A stretch of 64,000 bases of DNA from Candidatus Omnitrophota bacterium (GTDB lineage Bacteria; Omnitrophota; Gorgyraeia; Zapsychrales; Zapsychraceae): the NCBI GenBank assembly GCA_015233115.1, contig JADFYJ010000006.1:65801-129800 (forward strand). Direction: 5' to 3'. Shown piece by piece: positions 24,642 through 63,732 of the stretch. The notes under the pieces are model-generated. The model was not told the origin of the DNA. It was given only the letters and a program-made list of their open reading frames with translations, and did not search any database. Each line of letters begins with the position of its first letter. Within the stretch, counting starts at the first letter, position 1. The position numbers and the translations under genes are program-made.

Positions 24642-25472
24642 ATGAGTATGTCTTTAAAAAAAATAGTTATATTTTCTTTTTGGTGCGTTTTCGCACTCAC
24701 TTCACTCATGTCAAATGTGGTCTCTGCCGAAGAACAGTTTCCCTTCGTTGCAGAGGCCGTTTCTGACAATACCCATATTCGGGCCGGTCAAAGCTCAGAT
24801 TTCGAATCCCTCTATCAAGCCAATCATAACACTCAGTTTGTCGTGGTCGGAAAATTATACTCTTGGTACAAGGTTGAATTGCCTGCGGATGCGGTTTCAT
24901 TCATTGCGGTGAAGTATGTCCTACCTGGCGCGGATAATAAGGAAGGTCTGGTTCTGGGAGATAAGGTGAATGTCCGTGCCAAAGCGGATATTAATGGAAC
25001 AGCGGTAGGGAAAGTCGTAAAAGGGGACACAATATCTATTATAGAAAAGAAGGATGAATGGTATAAAATTCGTTCGGTTCCTAATAGCTTTGGGTGGGTC
25101 AAAATAGATTCAGTAAAGTTTGTCAACCAGGATGTGGAAAGTTTTAAACAATCCGTACAATTAGCTTTAATAAAACCAACCCAAGAGGTTATCCCTGCGT
25201 TTTGTCCTATTCCTGCTAAATCTAATTCTGCTCCGGAGCAAATTAATAAATTGAGTTTTATAGGTATCCTTGAGCCGGTGAAAGACATATCGCTGGAAAA
25301 TGTTAAATACCAGGTGACAGATAATGGCCAGGTTGCTTGTTATATTTTTGGGTTGAATGAATTACTGCCTAAATTCGCGAATTTTACAGTTAAGGTCGAA
25401 GGGACGGCAATGGAAAAATATACCGCTTCAGCTCCTGTCCTGGAATTAGATACCATCAAATTACAATTGTAA
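24642..25472 (+). CDS. Secreted bacterial SH3-domain protein.
   Basis: Signal peptide; two SH3b-like segments (YSWYKVELP and DEWYKIRSVPNSFGWV). Confidence 0.55.
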   Translation: MSMSLKKIVIFSFWCVFALTSLMSNVVSAEEQFPFVAEAVSDNTHIRAGQSSDFESLYQANHNTQFVVVGKLYSWYKVELPADAVSFIAVKYVLPGADNKEGLVLGDKVNVRAKADINGTAVGKVVKGDTISIIEKKDEWYKIRSVPNSFGWVKIDSVKFVNQDVESFKQSVQLALIKPTQEVIPAFCPIPAKSNSAPEQINKLSFIGILEPVKDISLENVKYQVTDNGQVACYIFGLNELLPKFANFTVKVEGTAMEKYTASAPVLELDTIKLQL

Positions 25473-29608: not shown

Positions 29609-30145
29609 TTATTTCGCCACTTTTAGCGTAAGCTCCACGCCGTCTTTCACTAATTTTACGGATTGCAGGTCTATGGATTGGATTGTGTAACCATCTATCT
29701 CTGCGCCGGTCTCGTACACTTCACCATTAATGAGCGCGACTTTTTTAGTGCCGGTTGACATGATGCCGCTAATCACAAAAGTCGGCGCTTGTGTCGGCGG
29801 AGCAGTATGCACGATAGGAGGCACCGAAGCTGTGGGTAATGCTGTGATTGCTTGAGTTGACACTTTTGATGCCGTAACCGGTGAAGGCGATTTTTGTGTT
29901 AAATTTTTTGATTTGTGATTGATCGCGACAGTGTTGTAGACCGTGATGCATAAAAGGACAAGACAGACACCCACCAAGATCTTGATCATGATTCCATGAT
30001 TTTCATTGTTGGGCTCTATTGGCAACGGCGAAATAAATGATTGGTCATTTCCAACCGGATTCGGTTGTTCAGTTGGTTGGTTGGTTTGCGTGTTCTTTTG
30101 CATAACATTTTGGGTTTTTTTAAGCGCGTCATTAATGATGCTCAT
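29609..30145 (-). CDS. GspB/ExeB-like general secretion pathway accessory protein.
   Basis: MSIINDALKK N-terminus typical of GspB, one TM helix, and partnered with gspA upstream with 4-bp overlap. Confidence 0.5.
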   Translation of the reverse strand: MSIINDALKKTQNVMQKNTQTNQPTEQPNPVGNDQSFISPLPIEPNNENHGIMIKILVGVCLVLLCITVYNTVAINHKSKNLTQKSPSPVTASKVSTQAITALPTASVPPIVHTAPPTQAPTFVISGIMSTGTKKVALINGEVYETGAEIDGYTIQSIDLQSVKLVKDGVELTLKVAK

Positions 30146-30954
30146 TTGATAAATACCTCCTCGGCACTGTTCTGTACCATATTTTCATCGATGACGGTTG
30201 ATTCCGCGATAAAACCCGCCAATAAAGCCCGGTCGCACAAAATGTTGACCAGCCGTGGTGTGCCGTTGGATAACTGGTAAATTTGTTCAAGCGCTTTAGA
30301 TGAAAAGGTAATTTTACAAGGGAGAGAGTGGGAGGCGATTTTTATGCGGTGATGAATATAGTCCGACATGTCAGCTTTTTCTAAAGGCGCTAAGTGATAC
30401 CGTACAAAAATACGTTGATTGAGTTGGGTCAATTCCGGAAGATTTAGCATGTAATTGAGTTCCGGCTGTCCGACGAGAATTATTTGCAATAATTTTTCTT
30501 TTTCTGTTTCCAGATTGGAAAGCATGCGGATTTGTTCCAGCTGTCGCGGCTTTAAGTTTTGCGCTTCGTCAATGATTAGGACGACATTATGATTTTTATT
30601 CGTCTCTTCAATGAGAAAATCATTTAAGGCGTTCATCAGATCAAATTTATTTTTAAATTTACCGGTAATACCGAGATCTTTGAGGATTAGGTTTAAAAGC
30701 TGAAGGTCTGTGAAGCTGGGATTTAAAATCAGCGCGGTCTTGACGGTTTTATCTAGTTTATTGAGGAGTATCCGGCAAAGCGTAGTTTTTCCGGTTCCAA
30801 TCTCACCAGAAATAACAATAATCCCTTTCCGGTTCATGATCCCGTACTTGAGGTGACTGAACGCTTCCTCATGTTTAGGACTGGAAAAATAAAATCCCGG
30901 ATCAGCTGTGATACTGAAAGGATTTTCCTTAAGATGGTAAAAGGCTTTATACAT
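30142..30954 (-). CDS. gspA: GspA/ExeA-family AAA ATPase.
   Basis: FYHLKENPFSITADP...GIIVISGEIGTGKTTLCR (ExeA N-terminal motif and Walker A), Walker B VVLIIDEAQ. Confidence 0.8.
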   Translation of the reverse strand: MYKAFYHLKENPFSITADPGFYFSSPKHEEAFSHLKYGIMNRKGIIVISGEIGTGKTTLCRILLNKLDKTVKTALILNPSFTDLQLLNLILKDLGITGKFKNKFDLMNALNDFLIEETNKNHNVVLIIDEAQNLKPRQLEQIRMLSNLETEKEKLLQIILVGQPELNYMLNLPELTQLNQRIFVRYHLAPLEKADMSDYIHHRIKIASHSLPCKITFSSKALEQIYQLSNGTPRLVNILCDRALLAGFIAESTVIDENMVQNSAEEVFIK

Positions 30955-54963: not shown

Positions 54964-57900
54964 ATGTTTAAGCGTGTCCTTAGTTTAATTTTAAGTATTA
55001 CTTTTATATTTTCCGCGTTTGCGCCCTATGCCAATGCGGTCGAACCGCTTTTTGCCGCACCCGCGGTCATGCCATTACTTGCACCGGCCAACATAGAAGT
55101 GCCTTTGCTGAAAGGATTGCGGATCGATCCGGCTTCTCCTTTAAAAATAGATTTCATTTTGGAGGCAGGGAAATCTGAACAAAATGCCAATTATTTAAAA
55201 ATTGAATCTAACCGTTTAATTAAATATTTCCTCGCCGGATTAACTGTCCCAGCTAATGAACTTTGGGTCAACTTAAATCCTAAAGAGCCAAACCGCATCA
55301 CGAGTGAAAAATTCGGCCAAACCGAAATGGGCCGCGACCTCTTAGCCCAGGATTACGTCCTCAAACAATTAAGCGCGAGTCTGCTAAACCCGGACAATGA
55401 AACCGGCCGAAAATTCTGGGATGGTGTGTATAAAAATGTTTCCTCTCCCCTCCGGGGAGAGGGCAGGGTGAGGGGTTTAGATATCCCCATTGGAATTTTA
55501 AGCAAAGTCTGGATCGTCCCAGGTGAAGCTGTAGTGGTCGAAAAAGAGAATGCGGCGTATGTCAAAAGCGCAAAATTAAAAGTGTTATTTGAGGGGGCGG
55601 AGAATACTCAATTAATCAAACAGTTAATTCTTCCCGCCATTGAAAAACAAGTCAACGAAGGCTCCGAATTCTCCCTGCTTCGTCAAATATATCATTCTTT
55701 GATTTTGGCAACATGGATGAAACGTAAAATTGGATTATTACAAAAAAATTATATTAACCAAAACAAAATCTCCGGCATCGACGTTGCCGACAAACAAGCC
55801 AAACAAAAAATTTACGCCCAATATCTCAAAGCCTTTACGGATGGCCTGCATAAATTTATTAAAGAAGAATACGACCCCCAAACCCGGCAGATCGTAGCCC
55901 GTCAATATTTCACCGGAGGAGCAGGATTTGAAAATTTAGACTCAGCCATGGTGGTCAACACTATGCAGGGACCTGTGGTTGCTCAATTTGAAAAACCGTA
56001 TGAAGTTGACGTAGATTTGAAACCGCAAAATTCTGTTGCCATTGATCAGGCCGCATTAGCCGGAACTTTAAAAATGGGGAAAGGGATAAAAGGGTTTTTA
56101 GACCGGGTTTTTGTTGCAGAGGAAGATAAGGAAAAAAAAGAGCGGACGCGCGTGTTAATTGAAAGTTTTTTAAACTCCGATTTTGAGCCAGCAGTCAAAA
56201 TGTTTGAAGAAATAAATCAATTAAGCAATGACAAAAAAATTATTTTAGCCCGCCAGTTATTGAAAACCGCGCCTGGCGCGTTAGCAGAAAATTTAACCTT
56301 AGAGCAATTTTTAATGTTAAAACCGAATGATAATAATGCGTCTTTCTTTCATATTTTTGGACGCTTTATTCTGGCCTTTCATTCTGAGTACAAAGCTGAA
56401 TACCTGAAAATGTATCAAGGTAATCCTTTAGTTTTAAATAATGATATCACCCGTTGGAAAACAGTTTACGCGCTTCTTTGGGCGGCGGAAATTTTAGGCT
56501 CAGACCAAGCCCTGCTGGCGCGTCAAAATATGGACGATATATCGCGCGATTTAATCAATAAACATCAAGCCTTAAGTGACGATGAAATAGCAGCTTTTGA
56601 AAAGGAACTGCCGAATTTTAATTGGCGAATGGCAACTGATGTGCCTTGGGAAGAAGTCATCAGGTCGCCTTCACTACAACCATATGGCCCTACGGATGAT
56701 GAACAATCAGTGCGGCGGTGGGGTTCAATTTATAATCAACAAAATTATTGGAATAATAATGTTGTGGTCCGCAGATATTTTTTGTTTTTAGTCAGAGATA
56801 TGATTCTTAATCCGGAATTTTTTACCCATGATTACGTTCAGCGGATATCGCAGATGCATTCGGCCCTGCGAAGAGCACGCGGTCTTTATGCCTCTGATTC
56901 AGGGCATGATGATGGTTTGCAAACAGGAATTTTAAATTCAACGTCAGAACAAAATAAAAAATTATTCTTAAGCTTAAAAGAATTATTGCAAGAACATAAT
57001 GGCGTTAACAAAAATCTATCTAAAGAAATATCTCAAATTGCAGGATATTATTTGGCTCTTTTACAAGGCTATCTATTCGGTCCTGGACGGGGTAACAACT
57101 CGCTTTACATGAATATGGTGAATGCTCTGATACGGCTCAATAGCTTAAATGGGATAAGTCACGAAAACCTTGATATGGTAATTGCCCTTGTGCATAACAA
57201 ACCAGAAAAATTTCTTTATCCGCGTTTCTTGTCCGAGCTTAAAAAAAGAAATCCGGAAAATAAAGCAGCCCAAAATTTATCCATCAAAGATATTCTGCCT
57301 GAATCAGATCAAGCGATGGTGCGGGATTCTAGAGATCAAGAACGCCTGGCAAAAAGAAAAAATTTATTCAGGACTTTTGATCTGGAAGGCATGCCTCCTG
57401 AAGAAATGCCGCCAGAATTGTTTGAAAACATTAAAGAGCCTTTAACCGCCAAGCAAAAAGAAAACTTAAAGAAGCAATTAGCCGATCATTTCATGATTTG
57501 GGGCTTAGAATCATTTCTTACCATGGAACACCAGGATGAAAGAGTCCTGCAATTTGCGCAAAAACAAGGCTTTAAAATAAATAAAGCATTTTTAGAGCAA
57601 GTTATTAGGGAAATGTTCGCTGAAAAAGAAAAATATTTTACGGCCAAAGTGGTAGAGATCGGAACATCCAACGCAATAAATACAGATCGTGCCTCTTTAG
57701 CCACCACAACTTCAAACGATATTAATCAAGACGACTCATGGGCAGAGAGGTTCGCTTCTTATAGGCATAAAAGAATTATTGTAGCTGATGATCACGCGGA
57801 TTTTCGTCAGGATATGCAGGGAATTTTGTCTAGATATTTTAACAAAGTGACTATAGCTTCATCCATCAACGAAGTAATGGAAGAGTACGCGGCGATGAAA

Positions 57901-60900
57901 GCGGATCAGGTGGCTGATGATGATATTTTAATTTTGATAGATTTTCAGTTTGCAGAGGGACACAATGCGTTTGAATTGGTCAATCAACTGCGCGTTGAAC
58001 GGAATTTTACCGGTAAAATCGGCATTGTTTCCGGCAGTATGGTGTCAGAACTTAATATTCCGGGGTACGATCCTGTTCATCAGGATTTGAATAATGAGGT
58101 CAAGATACGTTATGGTTTGGATTATATTCAGAAACAGCCTGCCGGATTTAAAGATAATTTGTTTGGTTTAATGGATAGGCAATTTAAACAAAAGCCTTAC
58201 CAAAAGCCAGAGGGTTTGGAGCCGTTGGTTGTAGACCATGAACTACATGGAGTTCATGGCCGTGAACCCAGCGTGGTTCACGGTTCTAATTTGGGGTATT
58301 TTTTAAGCGGCATCAATGATAGGGAAATGCATATTGGGGAAGAGTTAGAGAAATCTCTTAATGAAGTGTCTTTGGGGCAGTCTTTAAATACTGGCGCAGT
58401 GCAAAGTTTAATTGAAGAAATCAAAACAGGTATTAAATTTTCGAATGTGCGTCAAGGATTTAATGGATCAGTTGATTCCTATGCTTTTCGTCAAAGTCTC
58501 CACGATCATAAAAATAATATCGCAAGGCTAGGCAGTAAAATTGAAGACCTTCAAGGGCAAATAACAGCTGAGTCGAATGCTGCTCTGGATTCAGTATTAT
58601 CCCGTATTCATGATATGGTAAACGTGTATTTTAATTATACGGATTGGGTCTACCGCATGTTGATTTATTGCGGCCGCCTTGAGTATATTGAGATGATGGA
58701 GCCGCTGCTGCAGTCTGCCATTGTGTCTTACCAAAAAGAATTCGAACGTCGTCATTCCAATCAATTCGATCCTGACGAAGGGATTGCTCAGGCTCTTAAT
58801 CATTTGAAAAACACCAGCGCGGAATTCCGTGGTCAGCACATCGAACCTGCCATGAAATCGTGGGGGATATTATTTAAGGAATATCAGGCTGTCGAAGAAG
58901 GCATGAATAAAATTTTGGGCGATAAAATGAGTTCAAACCAAAACGCGTTTTTAAAATCATTTTCTGACAAATTAAATTTATTTTTCGGCCAATATCTCGT
59001 TACATTCGGAGCCAATGATTTGAATGGCGATTTGCCAGGTAAAGCACTAGGCAGGGTCGTGGTTTTAAGCGGCGATTCATGGGAGGCCGAACAATTTTTT
59101 AAAGATAAGGTTCAGGAAAGCGATATTGTGGTTGTTCGTCAGGATTATTCATGGATTACAGCGGCACGCAGTAAAGCCTCTGCCATTATTTTTGCTCAAT
59201 CCGGCGGTCAGCATATTATCACTCAAGCTCGGATATCAGGAATTCCATTGATATTTTTGCCCAACGCGGATGAGTTTTTTGAGGCAGTTAGGAAAGAGTA
59301 CGAAAGACAGGGAAAGAACAAAGATATTTTTGTAAGAGTAGAAGTTGAAGATGGAAAAGGACGGATTATTCCGGTCAATGAAGTAGGAGAAAAAGTAAAC
59401 CCAATTGACTCTTTACAGGAAATTCAAAAAGTAGAGGTTGATAAGGTCGATGGTTACTCTGGCCCGGATATCATCAGTTCAGAGAGTCCTCTTGATGATT
59501 ACGCGGATACCATGGAAGAATTGCGACCCTGGATGGGAACTAAAGCGCTAAATCAATACATCGTAAAAAAAGACAAAATTTCCGACGTACCGCAGTTTTT
59601 GATGCAAACCTTCCGATTAATGGAACGGTGTTTTAAATTTTCCGACAAATATTATGAAATATTAGATAAGATCCGCGGTTTTTCCGACACATCTTCAAGA
59701 CATGAAGTGGAAACAGTTTTAAAGGAAATGCAAGATTATATTTTCTCTCAGTCGCTCAATGAATTGGATGAAATGTTTTATAAGGCCAGAGCCATTGAAT
59801 GGATTTTTGAAAATCCCTTGGCTATTCGTCTGATTACTAATGATCAGGATTTGGAAAAATATCCCGGTGTGGGCGCGGGGACGTATCTATCACTCGAAAA
59901 TATCCGGGTGAAAAATGTGCAAGAATTAAAGCCCTATTTAAAAGAAGTTTACGCGTCTATGTGGAGTTATGAAGCGTATAAACAGCGGCTGGACCGCGGC
60001 ATCCCTCAGGATGCGGTTTACGGCGCGATTGAAATTCAAGAATATAAATCTGACGCGATATATTCTATGCACATTGAGACGCAAGTTGAAGGCAATCCGG
60101 ATATTTTAAAAATTATGTTTATGCCCGGAGCTGCCCGGTCTATTTCTGCCAAAGATCCACAGTATGGTGGAGAACCGTTTATTTTTTATTTTGATAAAAA
60201 AGCGCAAAATGGAAAAGGCGGATTGATTGGCTGGAGCGATCCCCGAACGCAATATCATCCGGTTAAGGCAGAAAAGGCATATTACGCGTCTTTCGAAAAT
60301 AAAGATCCTCAAAGTTTTAATATTAACAATTATCCTGAACTCAGGATCATGTTTAAATCAAAAAATATGAATGTCAGGCCTTTTATCAACCAATTTGAAG
60401 ATGCTGCCCGCAAGGCGATGAAAATGGAAAAACGTTTTCAATCTCCGCGTGAAATAGAGGCTACTTTAGACTTAACTGGATTTTCTGCCCATCAATGCCG
60501 GAGAATGAAAGTCGTGGGGCCTATTGATATTTCAGCTATTCCTGCAAATGCAGAACAAGATGTGGAATTTTTGGAAAGGGTGATTAGCGAATTAAAGCAA
60601 CGCTCTCCGGAAATCGGTGAATTTATTGAAAAACATGGGGTAAAAGAATTTGATCCGCGAATTGTTTCTGGCGAAGAACTGGAAGAGGTATTACAGGGCT
60701 TACGCATTTTAGATCGATCAAATACTTTAAAAACCCCTTGGGTTTTTTCAATGCTTTTAATTACGGCTGCAGGTGGATCGGAAAGAAAGTTTGATCAGGA
60801 TGCGACGAGAATACTTAAGCTTTTACAAAATAAAGAGTTTGATAGTGTGCGTGGCTCGCTAATGTTTTTGATGGCCTATTTTGTTTTTGGCGGGCATGAA

Positions 60901-63054
60901 TTTATTTGGGATTGGTTGGAATATTTGTCAAACAATGAACCTGAATTGTTTAAACATTTAGCTCCCTATTTTATTTTAAGCGACAGAATAATCAATGCTA
61001 GCCATGCTTGCCGGGATTTAATGCTGTTTCGTTTGTTATCTCCTGAATTTTATGACCGAAGAGAAATTCAAAAAAAGCCACTAAGAGAAAAATTTATTCA
61101 GGCTTTGTCCGTAGATGATATCAGCCATCTTTTAAATAATGCTTTGAAATTTCAACAATCTACTGGAAGTGATTTTAAGGATAAGTATCTCCTGGATTTG
61201 CTAAAAACCCATCCTGATTTTACAGCTATTACCCAATTGGAGAATTTTAAGAAATTATATCCAGAGGAATCAACAGTATCTGTTAAAGAACCGTCGTTGC
61301 CCAAAGATGTCGTTCTTCTCAAAAATGTACTTGAAGAAATTAAAGTAAAGTCTCCGGCTATAAAAAATTTTATTGAACGTTATTCTGGACGGAAGTTCAG
61401 CATGGACGACGTATCTTTTCAAGAGATTAAAAAGATTACTGTTGAAGTGTTCGATCTCACCCAAAGCATTGAAGATCCCAAGATGCAAAGTATTGATGGA
61501 ACATTTTTAATATATTTAATTCATAAATTTGGCAGTGAATTAGGAGATTTTGAAAAGACAAGTGAAGATATTTGTATAGCGCTTCAGCACAAAGATTTTG
61601 ATAATGTCCGCGCTCCCGTGTTGTTTTTAATTTCTTTTTTTGGTTTTAATGGACATGCGTATATGTTTCGGTTTTTGGATAGGTTAGTTGACCGGCGGCC
61701 AGAATTATTTAAAGAATTGATTCCATATTTTATCCTCTCAGATAATTTGATCCAGGGAGTTTATAATGCTCACGGCTCTTTTGGGTTGGAAATTGAAAAT
61801 CTTATGTCTGATCGCATGATCAATGATGCTTGGGGGACAAATCAGGGGAAGAACATTCAGCAGACCTTTATAAATGAATTAACTCTAGAACAGATTGAAA
61901 AATTTCTCGGAAACGCTGTTACCATCAGAGAAACGCATACCAACTATGATACCCAGCGTTTGTTGCTATTGCTTCAAAACCGAAATGATTTCAAGCAGAT
62001 TACAGTGTTGAATAATTTTAAACAACTTTACCCGGATTATAAAGAGCCGGGACCAGATGTCATGACGGATCAAAATAATTCTGGTCTCTCGTCTGAAAAA
62101 ATTGCTTGGCTGCATAAATTAATTGATAATATGAAAAACATGGATTCGGACGACTTTTTAAAAGATTTCTTGGAGAGGCACGCGGGTGGTTCTTTTGATT
62201 TAAAAAATATTTCTCCGGACGATTTTGAGTTAATACGTTTTTGGTTTTGGAACGTGCTTAAGAATTTTAAAAATCAACATGTTGAGGTTGACATGCCTAC
62301 CATGTTTTTAGCATTCGCGATTTATATTTCAGGAGAGAGGCTGGATGATTATAAAAAGGTTTGGACGGATATTCTTCAAACATTGCAAAGCCCTGAGTTT
62401 GACGATGTCCGGGGACCGATAATGTTTTTAATGTCATTTTTTGTTGAAGGCGGACACGAATTTATCTTAGAATGGCTGGATGACCTTTCTGTTCAAAATC
62501 CGGATTTGTTTAAAAAAATAGTGCCATATTTTATCGTGCCGAATGAGATTGTTTATCTCATGCAGGAGCAAAGCACTGGATTTTGGAAGCATAAAGATTT
62601 TATACTTTATCGGCTTTTGTTTGAAAAAGACGCGGAAAGAAGATGGGGAAATCTGCAAAAAAGGTTTATCGCGGATTTAAGCGTTGAAGATGTGAGGAAA
62701 TTGATGGACAATGTGGAAGTTTTTGGAAAACTGGATGAAAAAAATTATAAAGTCACTTTGCTTCACCTGATAGAGCCGCACCAGGAATTTTTAACTATAA
62801 AAGGAACAACAGAATTTAAAAAACTCTATCCGTATTCAGATCAAGCGCAGTTGGCCGATGAAAAAAATAAAGGCGGTATTGACTTAAACACCGAAACCAT
62901 GAATGTGAAAGTCGAATCTGATTCCGCAGTAATTGCTGATCAGGGAAAATTCGATCAGGCCCTTTTAGCCTCTATCCAAAGCATGACAGGTTTTGAACCC
63001 GTCATCGTTTCCATCCGGCCATTAACCAACGTTAACGCGTTTTTTGGCATATGA
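54964..63054 (+). CDS. Giant (2696 aa) secreted or anchored multidomain protein. In order: signal peptide, an unassigned domain shared with the 38505 protein, a receiver-like domain, a PEP-utilizer swivel-His-like segment, a degenerate PPDK_N-like ATP-grasp-like segment, and three C-terminal tandem repeats of about 240 aa.
   Basis: Uninterrupted 8091-nt ORF. MFKRVLSLILSITFIFSAFAPYANA signal. REC-like RIIVADDHADFR...ILILIDFQFAEGHNAFELVNQLR...KIGIVSG (about aa 934-1035). SGGQHIITQARISGIPLIF (aa about 1410-1430). KEVYASMWSYEAYKQRLDRGI...AIEIQEY...YSMHIET (aa about 1640-1720). Repeats at about aa 1870-2105, 2112-2360 and 2375-2630. Confidence 0.7.
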   Translation: MFKRVLSLILSITFIFSAFAPYANAVEPLFAAPAVMPLLAPANIEVPLLKGLRIDPASPLKIDFILEAGKSEQNANYLKIESNRLIKYFLAGLTVPANELWVNLNPKEPNRITSEKFGQTEMGRDLLAQDYVLKQLSASLLNPDNETGRKFWDGVYKNVSSPLRGEGRVRGLDIPIGILSKVWIVPGEAVVVEKENAAYVKSAKLKVLFEGAENTQLIKQLILPAIEKQVNEGSEFSLLRQIYHSLILATWMKRKIGLLQKNYINQNKISGIDVADKQAKQKIYAQYLKAFTDGLHKFIKEEYDPQTRQIVARQYFTGGAGFENLDSAMVVNTMQGPVVAQFEKPYEVDVDLKPQNSVAIDQAALAGTLKMGKGIKGFLDRVFVAEEDKEKKERTRVLIESFLNSDFEPAVKMFEEINQLSNDKKIILARQLLKTAPGALAENLTLEQFLMLKPNDNNASFFHIFGRFILAFHSEYKAEYLKMYQGNPLVLNNDITRWKTVYALLWAAEILGSDQALLARQNMDDISRDLINKHQALSDDEIAAFEKELPNFNWRMATDVPWEEVIRSPSLQPYGPTDDEQSVRRWGSIYNQQNYWNNNVVVRRYFLFLVRDMILNPEFFTHDYVQRISQMHSALRRARGLYASDSGHDDGLQTGILNSTSEQNKKLFLSLKELLQEHNGVNKNLSKEISQIAGYYLALLQGYLFGPGRGNNSLYMNMVNALIRLNSLNGISHENLDMVIALVHNKPEKFLYPRFLSELKKRNPENKAAQNLSIKDILPESDQAMVRDSRDQERLAKRKNLFRTFDLEGMPPEEMPPELFENIKEPLTAKQKENLKKQLADHFMIWGLESFLTMEHQDERVLQFAQKQGFKINKAFLEQVIREMFAEKEKYFTAKVVEIGTSNAINTDRASLATTTSNDINQDDSWAERFASYRHKRIIVADDHADFRQDMQGILSRYFNKVTIASSINEVMEEYAAMKADQVADDDILILIDFQFAEGHNAFELVNQLRVERNFTGKIGIVSGSMVSELNIPGYDPVHQDLNNEVKIRYGLDYIQKQPAGFKDNLFGLMDRQFKQKPYQKPEGLEPLVVDHELHGVHGREPSVVHGSNLGYFLSGINDREMHIGEELEKSLNEVSLGQSLNTGAVQSLIEEIKTGIKFSNVRQGFNGSVDSYAFRQSLHDHKNNIARLGSKIEDLQGQITAESNAALDSVLSRIHDMVNVYFNYTDWVYRMLIYCGRLEYIEMMEPLLQSAIVSYQKEFERRHSNQFDPDEGIAQALNHLKNTSAEFRGQHIEPAMKSWGILFKEYQAVEEGMNKILGDKMSSNQNAFLKSFSDKLNLFFGQYLVTFGANDLNGDLPGKALGRVVVLSGDSWEAEQFFKDKVQESDIVVVRQDYSWITAARSKASAIIFAQSGGQHIITQARISGIPLIFLPNADEFFEAVRKEYERQGKNKDIFVRVEVEDGKGRIIPVNEVGEKVNPIDSLQEIQKVEVDKVDGYSGPDIISSESPLDDYADTMEELRPWMGTKALNQYIVKKDKISDVPQFLMQTFRLMERCFKFSDKYYEILDKIRGFSDTSSRHEVETVLKEMQDYIFSQSLNELDEMFYKARAIEWIFENPLAIRLITNDQDLEKYPGVGAGTYLSLENIRVKNVQELKPYLKEVYASMWSYEAYKQRLDRGIPQDAVYGAIEIQEYKSDAIYSMHIETQVEGNPDILKIMFMPGAARSISAKDPQYGGEPFIFYFDKKAQNGKGGLIGWSDPRTQYHPVKAEKAYYASFENKDPQSFNINNYPELRIMFKSKNMNVRPFINQFEDAARKAMKMEKRFQSPREIEATLDLTGFSAHQCRRMKVVGPIDISAIPANAEQDVEFLERVISELKQRSPEIGEFIEKHGVKEFDPRIVSGEELEEVLQGLRILDRSNTLKTPWVFSMLLITAAGGSERKFDQDATRILKLLQNKEFDSVRGSLMFLMAYFVFGGHEFIWDWLEYLSNNEPELFKHLAPYFILSDRIINASHACRDLMLFRLLSPEFYDRREIQKKPLREKFIQALSVDDISHLLNNALKFQQSTGSDFKDKYLLDLLKTHPDFTAITQLENFKKLYPEESTVSVKEPSLPKDVVLLKNVLEEIKVKSPAIKNFIERYSGRKFSMDDVSFQEIKKITVEVFDLTQSIEDPKMQSIDGTFLIYLIHKFGSELGDFEKTSEDICIALQHKDFDNVRAPVLFLISFFGFNGHAYMFRFLDRLVDRRPELFKELIPYFILSDNLIQGVYNAHGSFGLEIENLMSDRMINDAWGTNQGKNIQQTFINELTLEQIEKFLGNAVTIRETHTNYDTQRLLLLLQNRNDFKQITVLNNFKQLYPDYKEPGPDVMTDQNNSGLSSEKIAWLHKLIDNMKNMDSDDFLKDFLERHAGGSFDLKNISPDDFELIRFWFWNVLKNFKNQHVEVDMPTMFLAFAIYISGERLDDYKKVWTDILQTLQSPEFDDVRGPIMFLMSFFVEGGHEFILEWLDDLSVQNPDLFKKIVPYFIVPNEIVYLMQEQSTGFWKHKDFILYRLLFEKDAERRWGNLQKRFIADLSVEDVRKLMDNVEVFGKLDEKNYKVTLLHLIEPHQEFLTIKGTTEFKKLYPYSDQAQLADEKNKGGIDLNTETMNVKVESDSAVIADQGKFDQALLASIQSMTGFEPVIVSIRPLTNVNAFFGI

Positions 63055-63132: not shown

Positions 63133-63732
63133 TTGAAAGTTAAAGAATTCATGAAAGACAAAAATATTTATATCATCGCGGGACCCAATGGGGCAGGGAA
63201 AACAACTTTCGCGGTAAAGTTTTTGCCTGATTATGTGAAGTGCCCTAATTTTGTAAACGCGGATCTTATCGCGCTGGGATTGGCTCCGTTTTCTCCCAAT
63301 ACGGCGGCTATTAAGGCAGGGAAATTGGTTCTTCAGCAAATTGATAATTTTGCTAATCAGGGAGTCGAATTTGCTTTTGAGACGACGTTGTCCGGTAAAA
63401 CTTATCTGAGATTATTGAAGGAGTTGAAATTAAAAGGATATAAATTACATCTATTTTTTTTGTGGGTTCCGGATAAACGGCTAGCTTTGGCACGAATCAA
63501 AGATCGAGTCGCAGAAGGCGGGCATAATATCCCGGCTAATGACGCGCGCAGAAGATTTGTCCGAAGTATTTATAATTTTTTATCGGTTTATCGACCCATT
63601 TTTGATTCTTGGATGTTGTTTGATAATTCGGGTACTGCTCCCCGATTAATTGCAGAAGAAAAAGACGGTAAACTTTATGTTGCTGACAAAAAAATGTTTG
63701 ATATAATCACTCGTTCGGTGGAGGCAATTTAA
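63133..63732 (+). CDS. Zeta-toxin-family P-loop kinase-like protein (AAA/zeta toxin domain).
   Basis: IYIIAGPNGAGKTTF Walker A, FVNADLIA, FETTLSGK, and LHLFFLWVP...RIKDRVAEGGHNIP, consistent with the zeta toxin / UNAG kinase family. Confidence 0.65.
   Translation: MKVKEFMKDKNIYIIAGPNGAGKTTFAVKFLPDYVKCPNFVNADLIALGLAPFSPNTAAIKAGKLVLQQIDNFANQGVEFAFETTLSGKTYLRLLKELKLKGYKLHLFFLWVPDKRLALARIKDRVAEGGHNIPANDARRRFVRSIYNFLSVYRPIFDSWMLFDNSGTAPRLIAEEKDGKLYVADKKMFDIITRSVEAI

What the first reader, a model, noticed from the sequence alone, without database searches (positions are those of the whole stretch)
54964..63054. 2696-aa secreted giant protein combining receiver-like, swivel-His and degenerate ATP-grasp-like (PEP-utilizer-like) modules with three C-terminal tandem repeats
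This single uninterrupted ORF encodes a signal peptide followed by several modules. A REC-like segment lies near aa 934-1035 (nt about 57763-58068), with a candidate phosphoacceptor Asp at nt 57940-57942. A PEP-utilizing-enzyme mobile (swivel) domain-like segment is SGGQHIITQARISGIPLIF, with a candidate His at nt 59212-59214. A PPDK_N-like region follows (nt about 59500-60300), whose usual SFAGQ and GLGE motifs are replaced (GVGAG and PGAA). Three repeats of about 240 aa lie at nt about 60571-61290, 61297-62040 and 62086-62851. A receiver fused to a phosphohistidine swivel and an ATP-grasp-like module, in a protein with an export signal, is not an architecture I can assign to any characterised family. 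The order swivel-then-ATP-grasp is inverted relative to PEP synthase and rifampin phosphotransferase.
Basis: partly seen in the sequence, partly recalled or inferred. Interest (0 to 1): 0.8.

Follow-up and report, generated by a model that had tools for sequence, protein, structure and literature searches.

The report
Omnitrophota capped secreted dikinase polyprotein
This 2696-residue gene is real and encodes a receiver-controlled, starch-kinase-like phosphotransfer enzyme, but what matters most is that it belongs to a huge, uncatalogued Omnitrophota protein family that carries normally cytoplasmic enzymes behind an export signal, between a fixed head and a fixed tail.

Summary

The interpretation needs three corrections.
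- The order His-then-ATP-grasp is that of alpha-glucan, water dikinases, so it is not unprecedented.
- The ATP-grasp is divergent but not degenerate. The counterparts of the experimentally probed ATP/Mg residues of rifampin phosphotransferase are all retained.
- The repeats are generic HEAT/ARM-like alpha-solenoids.

The larger result is the family. The first ~325 aa (signal peptide plus "N-cap") and the last ~60 aa ("C-cap", GGIDL...PVIINIQP...FLGL) are shared by more than 8000 protein clusters. All 79 fetched loci lie in Omnitrophota-type MAGs, with several copies per genome. The variable middles carry well over 100 different Pfam families.

A D-x-A-M motif marks module boundaries (511 observed against 33 expected). 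Cysteine is removed except where it is catalytic.

Neither cap matches Pfam, NCBIfam or PDB, and I found no description in the literature I could search. The export route, the site of action, the phosphate acceptor and the role of D-x-A-M remain inferred.

The parts
54964..63054 (+). Whole ORF, 2696 aa plus stop codon
   Evidence: identical protein P0001
54964..55038 (+). Sec-type signal peptide (aa 1-25): MFKR, hydrophobic core, PYANA|VEP
   Evidence: Of 227 family proteins, 210 have such a hydrophobic region, and 206 have K/R before it and a small-x-small site after it.
55039..55938 (+). N-cap (aa 26-325), the family-defining head domain. It has a mixed alpha/beta fold with no recognised relative.
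55442..55462 (.). GC-rich perfect hairpin (9-bp stem, 3-nt loop), in frame within a variable N-cap loop, encoding SSPLRGEGRVRGL
   Evidence: Related in-frame inserts occur in P0002, P0014, P0028 and P0033.
55939..55950 (+). D-S-A-M punctuation motif (aa 326-329) at the junction of N-cap and cargo
56521..57306 (+). M2 module (aa ~520-781), a mobile cargo module of unknown function with the motif F..GNNSxxMNxxNxxLRLxxxNGIxH
   Evidence: Shared with 12 family proteins at different positions. No Pfam or PDB hit. The Fic idea was not supported.
57307..57318 (+). D-Q-A-M punctuation motif (aa 782-785) after M2
57751..58143 (+). Divergent receiver (REC) domain, aa 930-1060. Signature residues: D942, D943, D993 (nt 57940-57942), S1023, K1057.
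58243..58965 (+). Helical region (aa 1094-1334) that always accompanies the dikinase core; candidate acceptor-binding part
   Evidence: Conserved with P0002, P0003 and P0008. In P0008 the unit starts here, directly after a DRAM motif.
58966..59403 (+). Phosphohistidine swivel domain (aa 1335-1480); His1417 at nt 59212-59214
   Evidence: domain E 5.5e-5 against the PEP synthase swivel. BLAST to P0032, which carries GWD1_pHisD.
59461..60513 (+). PPDK_N-type ATP-grasp nucleotide-binding domain (aa 1500-1850). Key residues: K1527, R1622, S1643, E1832, Q1844.
60556..61296 (+). Repeat 1 (aa 1865-2111), alpha-solenoid
61303..62052 (+). Repeat 2 (aa 2114-2363)
62089..62832 (+). Repeat 3 (aa 2376-2623)
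62839..62850 (+). Degenerate punctuation motif D-Q-A-Q (aa 2626-2629), immediately before the C-cap
62872..63051 (+). C-cap (aa 2637-2696): GGIDLN...GFEPVIVSIRPLTNVNAFFGI, the family-defining tail
   Evidence: Found in 204 of 243 family proteins, in 171 of them within 25 aa of the C-terminus. Consensus. No PDB or NCBIfam match.

Best explanation
The gene encodes one member of a very large Omnitrophota protein family with a fixed layout: Sec signal peptide, ~300-aa N-cap, variable cargo modules separated by D-x-A-M linkers, and a ~60-aa C-cap.

**Layout of this member**
- N-cap.
- A module of unknown function (M2).
- One ~1700-aa cargo unit, made of a divergent receiver domain, a helical region, a dikinase of the alpha-glucan, water dikinase (GWD) type, and three HEAT/ARM-like repeats.
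- C-cap.

**Proposed mechanism**
1. The ATP-grasp domain binds Mg-ATP through K1527, R1622, S1643 and E1832.
2. His1417 on the swivel domain attacks the beta-phosphate, as in PEP synthase, PPDK, rifampin phosphotransferase and GWD.
3. The swivel domain carries the phosphate to an acceptor held by another part of the unit, either the conserved helical region upstream or the solenoid repeats downstream.
4. Phosphorylation of Asp993 in the receiver switches this activity.
5. The signal peptide sends the whole polypeptide across the cytoplasmic membrane. The caps then serve sorting, anchoring or assembly, and the D-x-A-M linkers are peptide-level signals, most plausibly processing sites.

**Shown here**
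- Domain identities and conserved catalytic residues.
- The family architecture.
- The enrichment and placement of D-x-A-M.
- Cysteine depletion.

**Inferred**
- That the protein is exported, and where it acts.
- Dikinase activity and the acceptor. An alpha-glucan is one candidate.
- The roles of the caps and of D-x-A-M.
For: **Domain identities**
- The dikinase profile A1 matches the PEP synthase/rifampin phosphotransferase ATP-grasp at E 7e-40 and the swivel domain at E 5.5e-5.
- A profile of the divergent subfamily alone matches at E 1e-6.
- Orthologues pass the Pfam PPDK_N cutoff.
- H1417, K1527, R1622, E1832 and Q1844 are invariant across 10 sequences and map to residues that were functionally probed (PMC4844700).
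- The receiver gives hhalign E 1.9e-5, and all five signature residues are conserved.
- The GWD order appears in the sibling P0013. The C-terminal PPDK-type nucleotide-binding domain of GWD is described in PMC5575247.
- P0002 lies 2-7 kb downstream of a glycogen synthase, a GH57 branching enzyme, a histidine kinase and a stand-alone receiver.

**Family**
- The N-cap occurs in 8298 clusters and always at the N-terminus among the 150 hits listed.
- The C-cap occurs in 204 of 243 family proteins.
- At least 590 loci are found in a one-genome-per-species collection, with 3-4 per MAG among the best 80 alone.

**Export**
- Signal-peptide features are present in about 90% of members, and 211 of 227 have no further TM-like segment.
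- Cysteine is 0.19% in this protein and 0.12-0.16% in the family, against 1.32% in the other ORFs of the window and 0.90% in neighbouring ORFs of 84 loci.
- In P0044 both GAPDH catalytic cysteines are kept.
- Cysteine exclusion from exported proteins has a precedent (PMC2823432).

**D-x-A-M**
- 511 observed against 33.4 expected in cargo regions, z = 83, the top pattern by far.
- It sits in the linkers between GAPDH, PGK, enolase and aldolase in P0044, and between UDPGP, PFK and PGI in P0067.
- There is no synonymous-site conservation, so the signal is at the peptide level.
Against: - No experiment or proteomic data bear on export, cleavage or activity.
- ATP-dependent enzymes, a receiver domain and, in paralogues, sigma-factor, HTH and SNF2 modules are hard to reconcile with a periplasmic or extracellular site.
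- The canonical GLGE glutamate and the RSS serines are replaced (PGAAR, RLI), so the chemistry may differ.
- No carbohydrate-binding module or PEP/pyruvate TIM barrel was detected, so the acceptor is unknown.
- This protein has only two strict D-x-A-M sites and two degenerate ones.
- Gene neighbourhoods of the orthologues are not conserved.
- The N-cap model is of moderate confidence only (pLDDT 69).
- I could not run SignalP or DeepTMHMM.
Confidence: 0.6

Rival explanations
1. The protein stays inside the cell. The N-terminal hydrophobic segment is an uncleaved membrane tether, or is not used, and the receiver-dikinase acts in the bacterium's own cytoplasm as the output of a two-component pathway, for example regulating glucan metabolism.
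For: - The cargo needs ATP, and the receiver needs a histidine kinase.
- The orthologue P0002 sits next to a REC-HisKA-HATPase kinase, a stand-alone receiver and glycogen genes.
- Paralogues carry sigma-factor, HTH and helicase domains.
- Nielsen & Lui favour a cytoplasmic face for the TM-only class, nearly half of the >=10-kaa giants.
Against: - Basic residues precede the hydrophobic core, and a small-x-small site follows it, in 206 of 210 members. This predicts an N-in topology and cleavage, which puts the rest of the protein outside.
- There are no further TM segments.
- A 6- to 11-fold cysteine depletion specific to the family is unexplained by a cytoplasmic life.
Confidence: 0.2
2. The family members are effectors delivered into prey or host cells. 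After Sec export, the caps are recognised by a second-step secretion or injection system, and the enzymes work in the victim's cytoplasm, using its ATP.
For: - Omnitrophota are reported as epibiotic predators or parasites, with T2SS/T4P-like loci next to giant secreted proteins.
- Cytoplasm-type cargo combined with an export signal and cysteine depletion fits translocated effectors.
- A conserved C-terminal ~60-aa tail resembles a secretion tag in logic.
Against: - No secretion genes flank this gene or its orthologues. P0003 does lie beside conjugation-type T4SS genes, which is probably a mobile-element context.
- Whole glycolytic blocks are odd as effectors.
- There is no experimental support.
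Confidence: 0.2
3. The dikinase module is an inactive pseudoenzyme, and the protein is mainly a scaffold or adhesin.
For: - Pfam hits on this protein are sub-threshold (PPDK_N E 0.04).
- GLGE is replaced by PGAAR, and RSS by RLI.
- One third of the protein is alpha-solenoid.
Against: - The counterparts of Lys22, Arg117, Thr136, Glu297 and the catalytic His are all retained.
- The substituted motifs are themselves conserved down to 25% identity (A8), which indicates selection on a working site.
Confidence: 0.12
4. The long ORF is an assembly or annotation artefact, a chimera of several genes.
For: Only one assembly carries the identical sequence.
Against: - The same head, receiver, dikinase, three repeats and tail occur in the same order in P0002 and P0003 from unrelated assemblies. 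P0003 is on three independent contigs.
- Both caps are present at the two ends of this ORF.
Confidence: 0.02

Closest known systems
Alpha-glucan, water dikinase / phosphoglucan, water dikinase (GWD1, PWD; EC 2.7.9.4/5)
   Same: - The phosphohistidine domain comes immediately before a C-terminal PPDK-type nucleotide-binding domain.
- There is no PEP/pyruvate TIM barrel.
- Family siblings hit Pfam GWD1_pHisD.
- The orthologue P0002 is near glycogen synthase and branching-enzyme genes.
   Different: - No CBM45 or CBM20 was detected.
- It is bacterial and carries a signal peptide.
- It is fused to a receiver and to solenoid repeats.
- The motifs in the ATP-grasp are altered.
- Glucan phosphorylation is untested.
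PEP synthase, pyruvate phosphate dikinase and rifampin phosphotransferase
   Same: Homologous ATP-grasp and swivel-His domains, with conserved ATP/Mg and His residues. The same swivelling phosphotransfer logic is expected.
   Different: - The domain order is reversed.
- The third, substrate-binding domain (TIM barrel or rifampin-binding domain) is absent.
Giant multi-enzyme proteins of Omnitrophota ('Archaeovorins' and related; West-Roberts et al. 2023 bioRxiv; Nielsen & Lui 2026 bioRxiv)
   Same: - Same phylum.
- Signal peptides on polypeptides that carry cytoplasm-type enzyme domains, including PPDK_N, receiver, HEAT, methyltransferase and sugar-metabolism domains.
- The same open question of whether they are cleaved.
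   Different: - These proteins are 0.6-4.4 kaa, not >=10 kaa.
- They mostly lack TM helices.
- They are defined by the N-cap, the C-cap and D-x-A-M punctuation, none of which I found described in those papers.
Type IX secretion cargo (signal peptide plus conserved C-terminal domain), and polyproteins cut at short linker motifs
   Same: A shared grammar: a Sec signal, diverse cargo, a conserved C-terminal tag of about 60-80 aa, and short repeated motifs in the linkers.
   Different: There is no sequence or fold similarity to any known sorting domain. The additional 300-aa N-cap has no counterpart. This is an analogy only.
Response regulators with enzymatic output domains
   Same: A receiver with DD, D, S/T and K signature residues placed N-terminal to an enzyme.
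   Different: - The receiver is below the Pfam threshold.
- It is embedded 930 aa into an exported polyprotein.
- The dikinase output is not a described response-regulator output, to my knowledge.

Membership tests
PEP-utilising / dikinase superfamily (PPDK_N ATP-grasp plus swivel His) | PPDK_N-type ATP-grasp nucleotide-binding domain | tested here: met
   - This protein hits Pfam at E 0.04, below the cutoff.
- Orthologues score 28.0 and 34.8 bits against a cutoff of 27.
- A subfamily-only profile matches PDB 5hv6 at E 1e-6.
- The wider profile matches at E 7e-40.
PEP-utilising / dikinase superfamily (PPDK_N ATP-grasp plus swivel His) | Mobile domain carrying the catalytic histidine | tested here: met
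   - H1417 is invariant in A1 and aligns with the His of LLSHPAIRAR in siblings that hit PF00391 and PF22973.
- The swivel match to PEP synthase is at E 5.5e-5.
PEP-utilising / dikinase superfamily (PPDK_N ATP-grasp plus swivel His) | ATP- and Mg-binding residues (Lys22, Arg117, Thr136, Glu297 of rifampin phosphotransferase) | tested here: met
   - K1527, R1622, S1643 and E1832 are retained.
- The GLGE glutamate and the RSS serines are replaced.
PEP synthase / PPDK proper | C-terminal PEP/pyruvate-binding TIM-barrel domain, with the order ATP-grasp then His | tested here: not met
   - No PEP-utilizers_C hit appears at E<=1.
- The order here is His then ATP-grasp.
Alpha-glucan, water dikinase | Phosphohistidine domain directly N-terminal to the nucleotide-binding domain | tested here: met
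   - The order is shown.
- The nucleotide-binding domain of GWD is C-terminal (PMC5575247).
Alpha-glucan, water dikinase | Starch/glucan-binding modules (CBM45 or CBM20) | tested here: not met
   No CBM family appears in the Pfam scan of the whole protein.
Alpha-glucan, water dikinase | Transfers the beta-phosphate of ATP to glucan hydroxyls | not testable with these tools
   This needs an enzyme assay. The only hint is the glycogen-gene neighbourhood of P0002.
Response regulator receiver (REC, PF00072) | Acidic pair, phospho-acceptor Asp, Ser/Thr and Lys signature residues in register | tested here: met
   - D942, D943, D993, S1023 and K1057 are invariant in Q, P0002 and P0003.
- The hhalign alignment, which ends at S1023, pairs D942/D943, D993 and S1023 with their counterparts in canonical family receivers.
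- K1057 is placed from the orthologue alignment only.
Response regulator receiver (REC, PF00072) | Significant profile match | tested here: inconclusive
   - Pfam gives 12.3 bits against a cutoff of 30.2.
- NCBIfam gives E 0.001.
- PDB receiver hits lie at E 0.017-0.9.
- hhalign gives 78% probability, E 1.9e-5.
Omnitrophota N-cap/C-cap family (defined here) | Signal peptide followed by the ~300-aa N-cap | tested here: met
Omnitrophota N-cap/C-cap family (defined here) | C-terminal GGIDL...PVIxxIxP...F(L/F)G(L/I) cap | tested here: met
   The jackhmmer hit covers aa 2616-2696 at E 9.8e-28.
Omnitrophota N-cap/C-cap family (defined here) | D-x-A-M linkers and cysteine depletion | tested here: met
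   - DSAM at aa 326 and DQAM at aa 782, plus two degenerate sites.
- 5 Cys in 2696 aa.
HEAT/ARM-type alpha-solenoid | Stacked helical hairpins | tested here: inconclusive
   - The AF2 model is all-alpha with pLDDT 85.
Fic/Doc (Fido) domain, considered for the M2 module | HxFx(D/E)GN(G/K)R core and profile similarity | tested here: not met
   - The catalytic His is absent.
- There is no Pfam or PDB hit.
- hhalign against E. coli Fic gives 0.1% probability.

The most novel reading that the evidence does not exclude
The N-cap, the C-cap and the D-x-A-M linkers define a previously undescribed, phylum-wide system. In it, Omnitrophota export polyproteins of normally cytoplasmic enzymes, including glycolysis, kinases, methyltransferases, signalling modules and this receiver-dikinase. 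The polyproteins are sorted by their two caps and cut or docked at D-x-A-M, which would build an extracytoplasmic or prey-directed metabolic and signalling toolkit. The same punctuation may mark the unknown cleavage points of the >10-kaa giant proteins.
Probability: 0.35. Interest if true: 0.85.

Novelty: new variant of a known kind. Interest (0 to 1): 0.66.

Why it matters
Omnitrophota are widespread, uncultured, ultra-small bacteria thought to live on other cells. Their large secreted multi-enzyme proteins are a recognised puzzle. Published work states that it is unknown whether, and where, those proteins are cleaved.

This window leads to a concrete and testable grammar for a family of more than 8000 clusters:
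- an export signal;
- a fixed head and a fixed tail;
- a four-residue linker motif lying in the linkers between the enzyme domains in the two members mapped against Pfam domains;
- near-total removal of non-catalytic cysteine.

If the motif is a processing site, it gives proteomics a direct handle and gives structure prediction natural cut points.

For enzymology, a receiver-gated, GWD-type dikinase with an unknown acceptor is a new combination. The family also raises the question of how ATP- and NAD-dependent enzymes can work outside the cytoplasm.

Tried and rejected
**Searches that found nothing**
- Pfam and NCBIfam on the whole protein, and Pfam on further family members (P0002, P0003, P0008, P0011, P0013, P0020, P0021, P0031, P0038, P0043, P0044, P0067): no family covers the N-cap or M2.
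- NCBIfam on the C-cap sequences alone: only scattered single-member matches, none recurring across members.
- PDB sequence-profile searches for the N-cap, repeats, M2 and C-cap: nothing significant.

**Ideas tested and dropped**
- Fic/Doc identity for M2, suggested by an F..GNxS...N...LR..G resemblance: not supported.
- A DNA-level meaning for D-x-A-M, such as a recombination site or an internal start with a ribosome-binding site: rejected, because the synonymous positions and upstream bases are unconserved in 40 loci.
- Conserved gene neighbourhood: not found. This window has housekeeping genes, P0002 has glycogen and two-component genes, P0003 has conjugation genes, and P0121 is a truncated fragment.
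- Promoter and terminator scan: at chance level.

**Tool failures or limits**
- Two of the three large homology searches returned almost nothing.
- The afdb50 fold library was unavailable.
- The contig of P0001 could not be looked up.
- Kizina et al. 2022 is not held.
Full report
**1. Observation**

The window is a stretch of an Omnitrophota chromosome with about 40% GC. All ORFs of at least 150 aa but three lie on the + strand (one of these, 24833-25288, lies inside a + strand ORF), and GC skew is positive throughout. The neighbours are housekeeping genes: dnaE, hisS, a class II aaRS, phoH, ybeY, recO and a NUDIX gene upstream, and a zeta-toxin-like ORF downstream.

ORF 54964..63054 (+) is uninterrupted and encodes 2696 aa. 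The identical protein is deposited at NCBI, named 'response regulator' (P0001).

- Asp993 and His1417 are at the stated codons.
- The SGGQHIITQARISGIPLIF segment is there.
- The variant motifs PGVGAG and PGAAR are there.
- The three repeats (aa 1865-2111, 2114-2363, 2376-2623) are 29-33% identical, with E-values of 2e-32 to 2e-38.

**2.

*ATP-grasp.* On this protein alone, Pfam gives only sub-threshold hits: PPDK_N at E 0.04 and Response_reg at E 0.19. The orthologues P0002 and P0003 pass the PPDK_N gathering score. A profile built only from the divergent subfamily (this protein plus P0002, P0121, P0003 and P0008) hits the ATP-grasp domain of rifampin phosphotransferase at E 1e-6. Adding canonical Omnitrophota relatives raises this to E 7e-40 and also recovers the swivel domain at E 5.5e-5.

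*Catalytic residues.* In the 10-sequence alignment, H1417, K1527, R1622, E1832 and Q1844 are invariant, and S1643 is nearly so. Through the printed alignment to PDB 5hv2, they correspond as follows:

| This protein | Rifampin phosphotransferase |
|---|---|
| H1417 | His825 |
| K1527 | Lys22 |
| R1622 | Arg117 |
| S1643 | Thr136 |
| E1832 | Glu297 |

Mutagenesis and structure show that these residues position the ATP polyphosphate, bind Mg2+ and carry the phosphate (PMC4844700). The ATP-grasp is therefore divergent, with RSS replaced by RLI and GLGE by PGAAR. It is not degenerate. The substituted motifs are themselves conserved down to 25% identity.

*Domain order.* His-then-ATP-grasp is not unprecedented. 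The sibling P0013 hits Pfam GWD1_pHisD and PEP-utilizers at aa 1132-1236, directly before PPDK_N at aa 1271-1593. Glucan, water dikinases carry the PPDK-type nucleotide-binding domain at their C-terminus (PMC5575247). No carbohydrate-binding module and no PEP/pyruvate TIM barrel was found.

*Receiver.* It is weak by every single-sequence measure. However, DD942/943, D993, S1023 and K1057 are invariant among the orthologues. A profile-profile comparison with canonical receivers from the same family gives 78% probability, E 1.9e-5. It pairs the acidic pocket, the acceptor Asp and the Ser/Thr.

**3. What the protein belongs to**

At least 1128 large proteins (the 120 listed are 1484-4373 aa; all the listed hits that carry a source name but one (P0118, Desulfobulbaceae) are labelled Omnitrophica/Omnitrophota or Candidatus Zapsychrus) share only aa 1 to ~330 of the query at 40-49% identity. 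Many also share the last ~65 aa.

- **N-cap.** An HMM of this head domain finds 8298 clusters at 50% identity among 1.84 billion representatives, 6776 of them at E<=1e-30. Among the 150 hits listed, the match always starts within the first ~80 residues.
- **C-cap.** The consensus is GGIDLnp..mnLqtq...ikF.lDPAmLqqLQNapGFtPVIInIqPmTnLp.FLGL. It is present in 204 of 243 family proteins, and in 171 of them within 25 aa of the end. Most of those without it look like fragments cut at contig ends.
- **Size.** Complete members range from 627 aa to more than 4000 aa, with a median of 1686 aa.
- **Distribution.** A scan of one genome per species found at least 590 loci. All 79 distinct loci kept are in MAGs labelled Omnitrophota/Omnitrophica, Candidatus Zapsychrus or Candidatus Elulimicrobium, or given the automatic name 'uncultured Planctomycetales'. 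There are 3-4 loci per MAG among these best hits alone.
- **Cargo.** The middles carry well over 100 different Pfam families. Examples include a GAPDH-PGK-enolase-aldolase string (P0044) and UDPGP-PFK-PGI (P0067). Others are methyltransferases, kinases, HATPase_c, receivers, a sigma-factor domain, and HTH and SNF2 domains.
- **Module shuffling.** Modules move between members. The 260-aa M2 module of this protein (aa 520-781) occurs at positions 396 to 2697 in twelve others.

**4. Three further family signatures**

*Signal peptides.* Of 227 members, 210 have a hydrophobic N-terminal core. Of these, 206 have K/R before it and a small-x-small site after it. In 211 of 227 there is no other TM-like segment.

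*A linker motif.* D-x-A-M is by far the most over-represented gapped tri-residue pattern in cargo regions: 511 observed against 33.4 expected, z = 83, where the next real pattern has z of about 10.
- It falls just after the N-cap (about 218 cases), just before the C-cap (about 70 cases), and between Pfam domains.
- In P0044 the order is 388 | GAPDH | 1186 | PGK | 1638 | enolase | 2094, 2197 | aldolase | 2897 | C-cap.
- Flanking residues, synonymous codon positions and upstream bases are unconserved, so the signal acts at the peptide level.
- In this protein the strict sites are DSAM at aa 326 and DQAM at aa 782. Degenerate sites are DRAS at aa 908 and DQAQ at aa 2626.
- In P0003 the receiver-dikinase-repeat block is bracketed by D-x-A-M at aa 361 and 2071. 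In P0008 the dikinase core begins right after DRAM at aa 1598 and lacks a receiver.
- The receiver, helical region, His domain, ATP-grasp and three solenoids therefore behave as one cargo unit.

*Cysteine removal.*

| Protein set | Cysteine | D-x-A-M per kaa |
|---|---|---|
| This protein | 0.19% | – |
| Family (243 proteins) | 0.12% | – |
| Other 46 ORFs of the window | 1.32% | – |
| N-cap ORFs in 84 loci | 0.16% | 1.15 |
| Neighbouring ORFs in the same loci | 0.90% | 0.21 |

The difference between this protein and the other window ORFs has a binomial p of 3e-10. In P0044 the only cysteines are one in the signal peptide, the two GAPDH catalytic cysteines (SNASCTTNA) and one in the aldolase. 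This argues that the cargo enzymes are kept active while non-essential thiols are selected against. Cysteine exclusion is described for exported proteins (PMC2823432).

**5. Mechanism**

My best-supported reading is that this is an exported, capped, modular polyprotein. Its main cargo is a receiver-gated dikinase of the GWD type. ATP binds in the ATP-grasp, His1417 takes the beta-phosphate, and the swivel domain hands it to an acceptor bound by the conserved helical region or by the solenoids.

An alpha-glucan is one candidate acceptor. The evidence is the GWD-like order and the glycogen synthase and GH57 branching-enzyme genes upstream of P0002, together with a histidine kinase and a stand-alone receiver. 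That neighbourhood is not conserved in this window or at P0003.

Several points are inferred and not shown:
- where the protein acts (periplasm, surface coat, or prey cytoplasm);
- what the caps bind;
- whether D-x-A-M is cut.

The main difficulty is that ATP-dependent and DNA-related cargo sits behind an export signal.

**6. Relation to the literature**

Giant (>=10-20 kaa) Omnitrophota proteins with signal peptides, TM helices and cytoplasm-type enzyme domains are published. One preprint states that cleavage points are unknown.

I found no description of the 0.6-4.4 kaa N-cap/C-cap family, of the D-x-A-M motif or of the cysteine depletion. I searched 7.7 million PMC papers and bioRxiv by keyword only, so a description elsewhere cannot be excluded.

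**7. Verdict**

The protein is a new variant of known kinds, namely a dikinase and an Omnitrophota secreted multi-enzyme protein. The family grammar it reveals is the part worth following up.

Noticed in passing
window 55442-55462 (inside the ORF, aa 160-172): A GC-rich perfect hairpin (CCTCTCCCC-TCC-GGGGAGAGG, followed by GCAGGGTGAGGGG) sits in frame in a variable, low-confidence loop of the N-cap and encodes SSPLRGEGRVRGL. Related in-frame inserts (PLSSLWGEGQGEG, GVGKGRVGG) occur in N-cap loops of P0002, P0014, P0028 and P0033, and in L064. They look like small palindromic elements inserted into coding sequence.
   Followed up: partly
L083 1-7870 (upstream of orthologue P0002): Glycogen/starch synthase, DUF4912, a GH57 branching enzyme, HIT, a REC-HisKA-HATPase kinase, a stand-alone receiver and a SET-domain gene directly precede the orthologous receiver-dikinase gene. 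This hints at a link to glucan metabolism and to a cognate kinase, but the arrangement is not conserved in this window.
   Followed up: partly
L080 1-1700 (upstream of orthologue P0003): Conjugation-type T4SS genes (CagX-like, TrbI, TraV) lie a few kb upstream of P0003, which suggests that this copy sits in or near a mobile element.
   Followed up: no
P0044 (2991 aa) and P0067 (2027 aa), family members: Single signal-peptide-bearing polypeptides carry whole stretches of glycolysis: two GAPDH modules, PGK, enolase and class II aldolase in one, and UDPGP, PFK and PGI in the other. The modules are separated by DQAM linkers, and the catalytic cysteines are retained.
   Followed up: partly
window 29609-30954 (- strand): Two of the only three minus-strand ORFs of at least 150 aa in the window lie here (the third, 24833-25288, lies inside a + strand ORF). 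They encode an AAA_22 ATPase (ExeA/GspA-like) and a small protein with a weak CdsD_C match. Gaps without long ORFs flank them.
   Followed up: no
window 63133-63732 (+): A zeta-toxin-family (PF06414) ORF lies immediately downstream of the giant gene. No antitoxin partner was looked for.
   Followed up: no
window 1-64000: GC skew is positive in every 2-kb window (0.03-0.23), and nearly all genes are co-oriented. This is consistent with a long leading-strand segment. The skew drops to about 0.03 at 52-56 kb, just before and at the start of the giant gene.
   Followed up: no
window 56521-57306 (M2 module, aa 520-781): A 260-aa module with invariant GNNS..M...N and NGI.H motifs occurs at varied positions in 12 other family proteins, sometimes directly before a receiver (P0021). 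It has no detectable relative in Pfam or PDB.
   Followed up: partly
C-cap of the family (window 62872-63051): The cap starts with an invariant Gly-Gly (GGIDL), usually 5-10 residues after a D-x-A-M. C39 double-glycine peptidase domains are reported in Omnitrophota giant proteins, so this Gly-Gly could be a processing site. That is pure speculation and was not tested.
   Followed up: no
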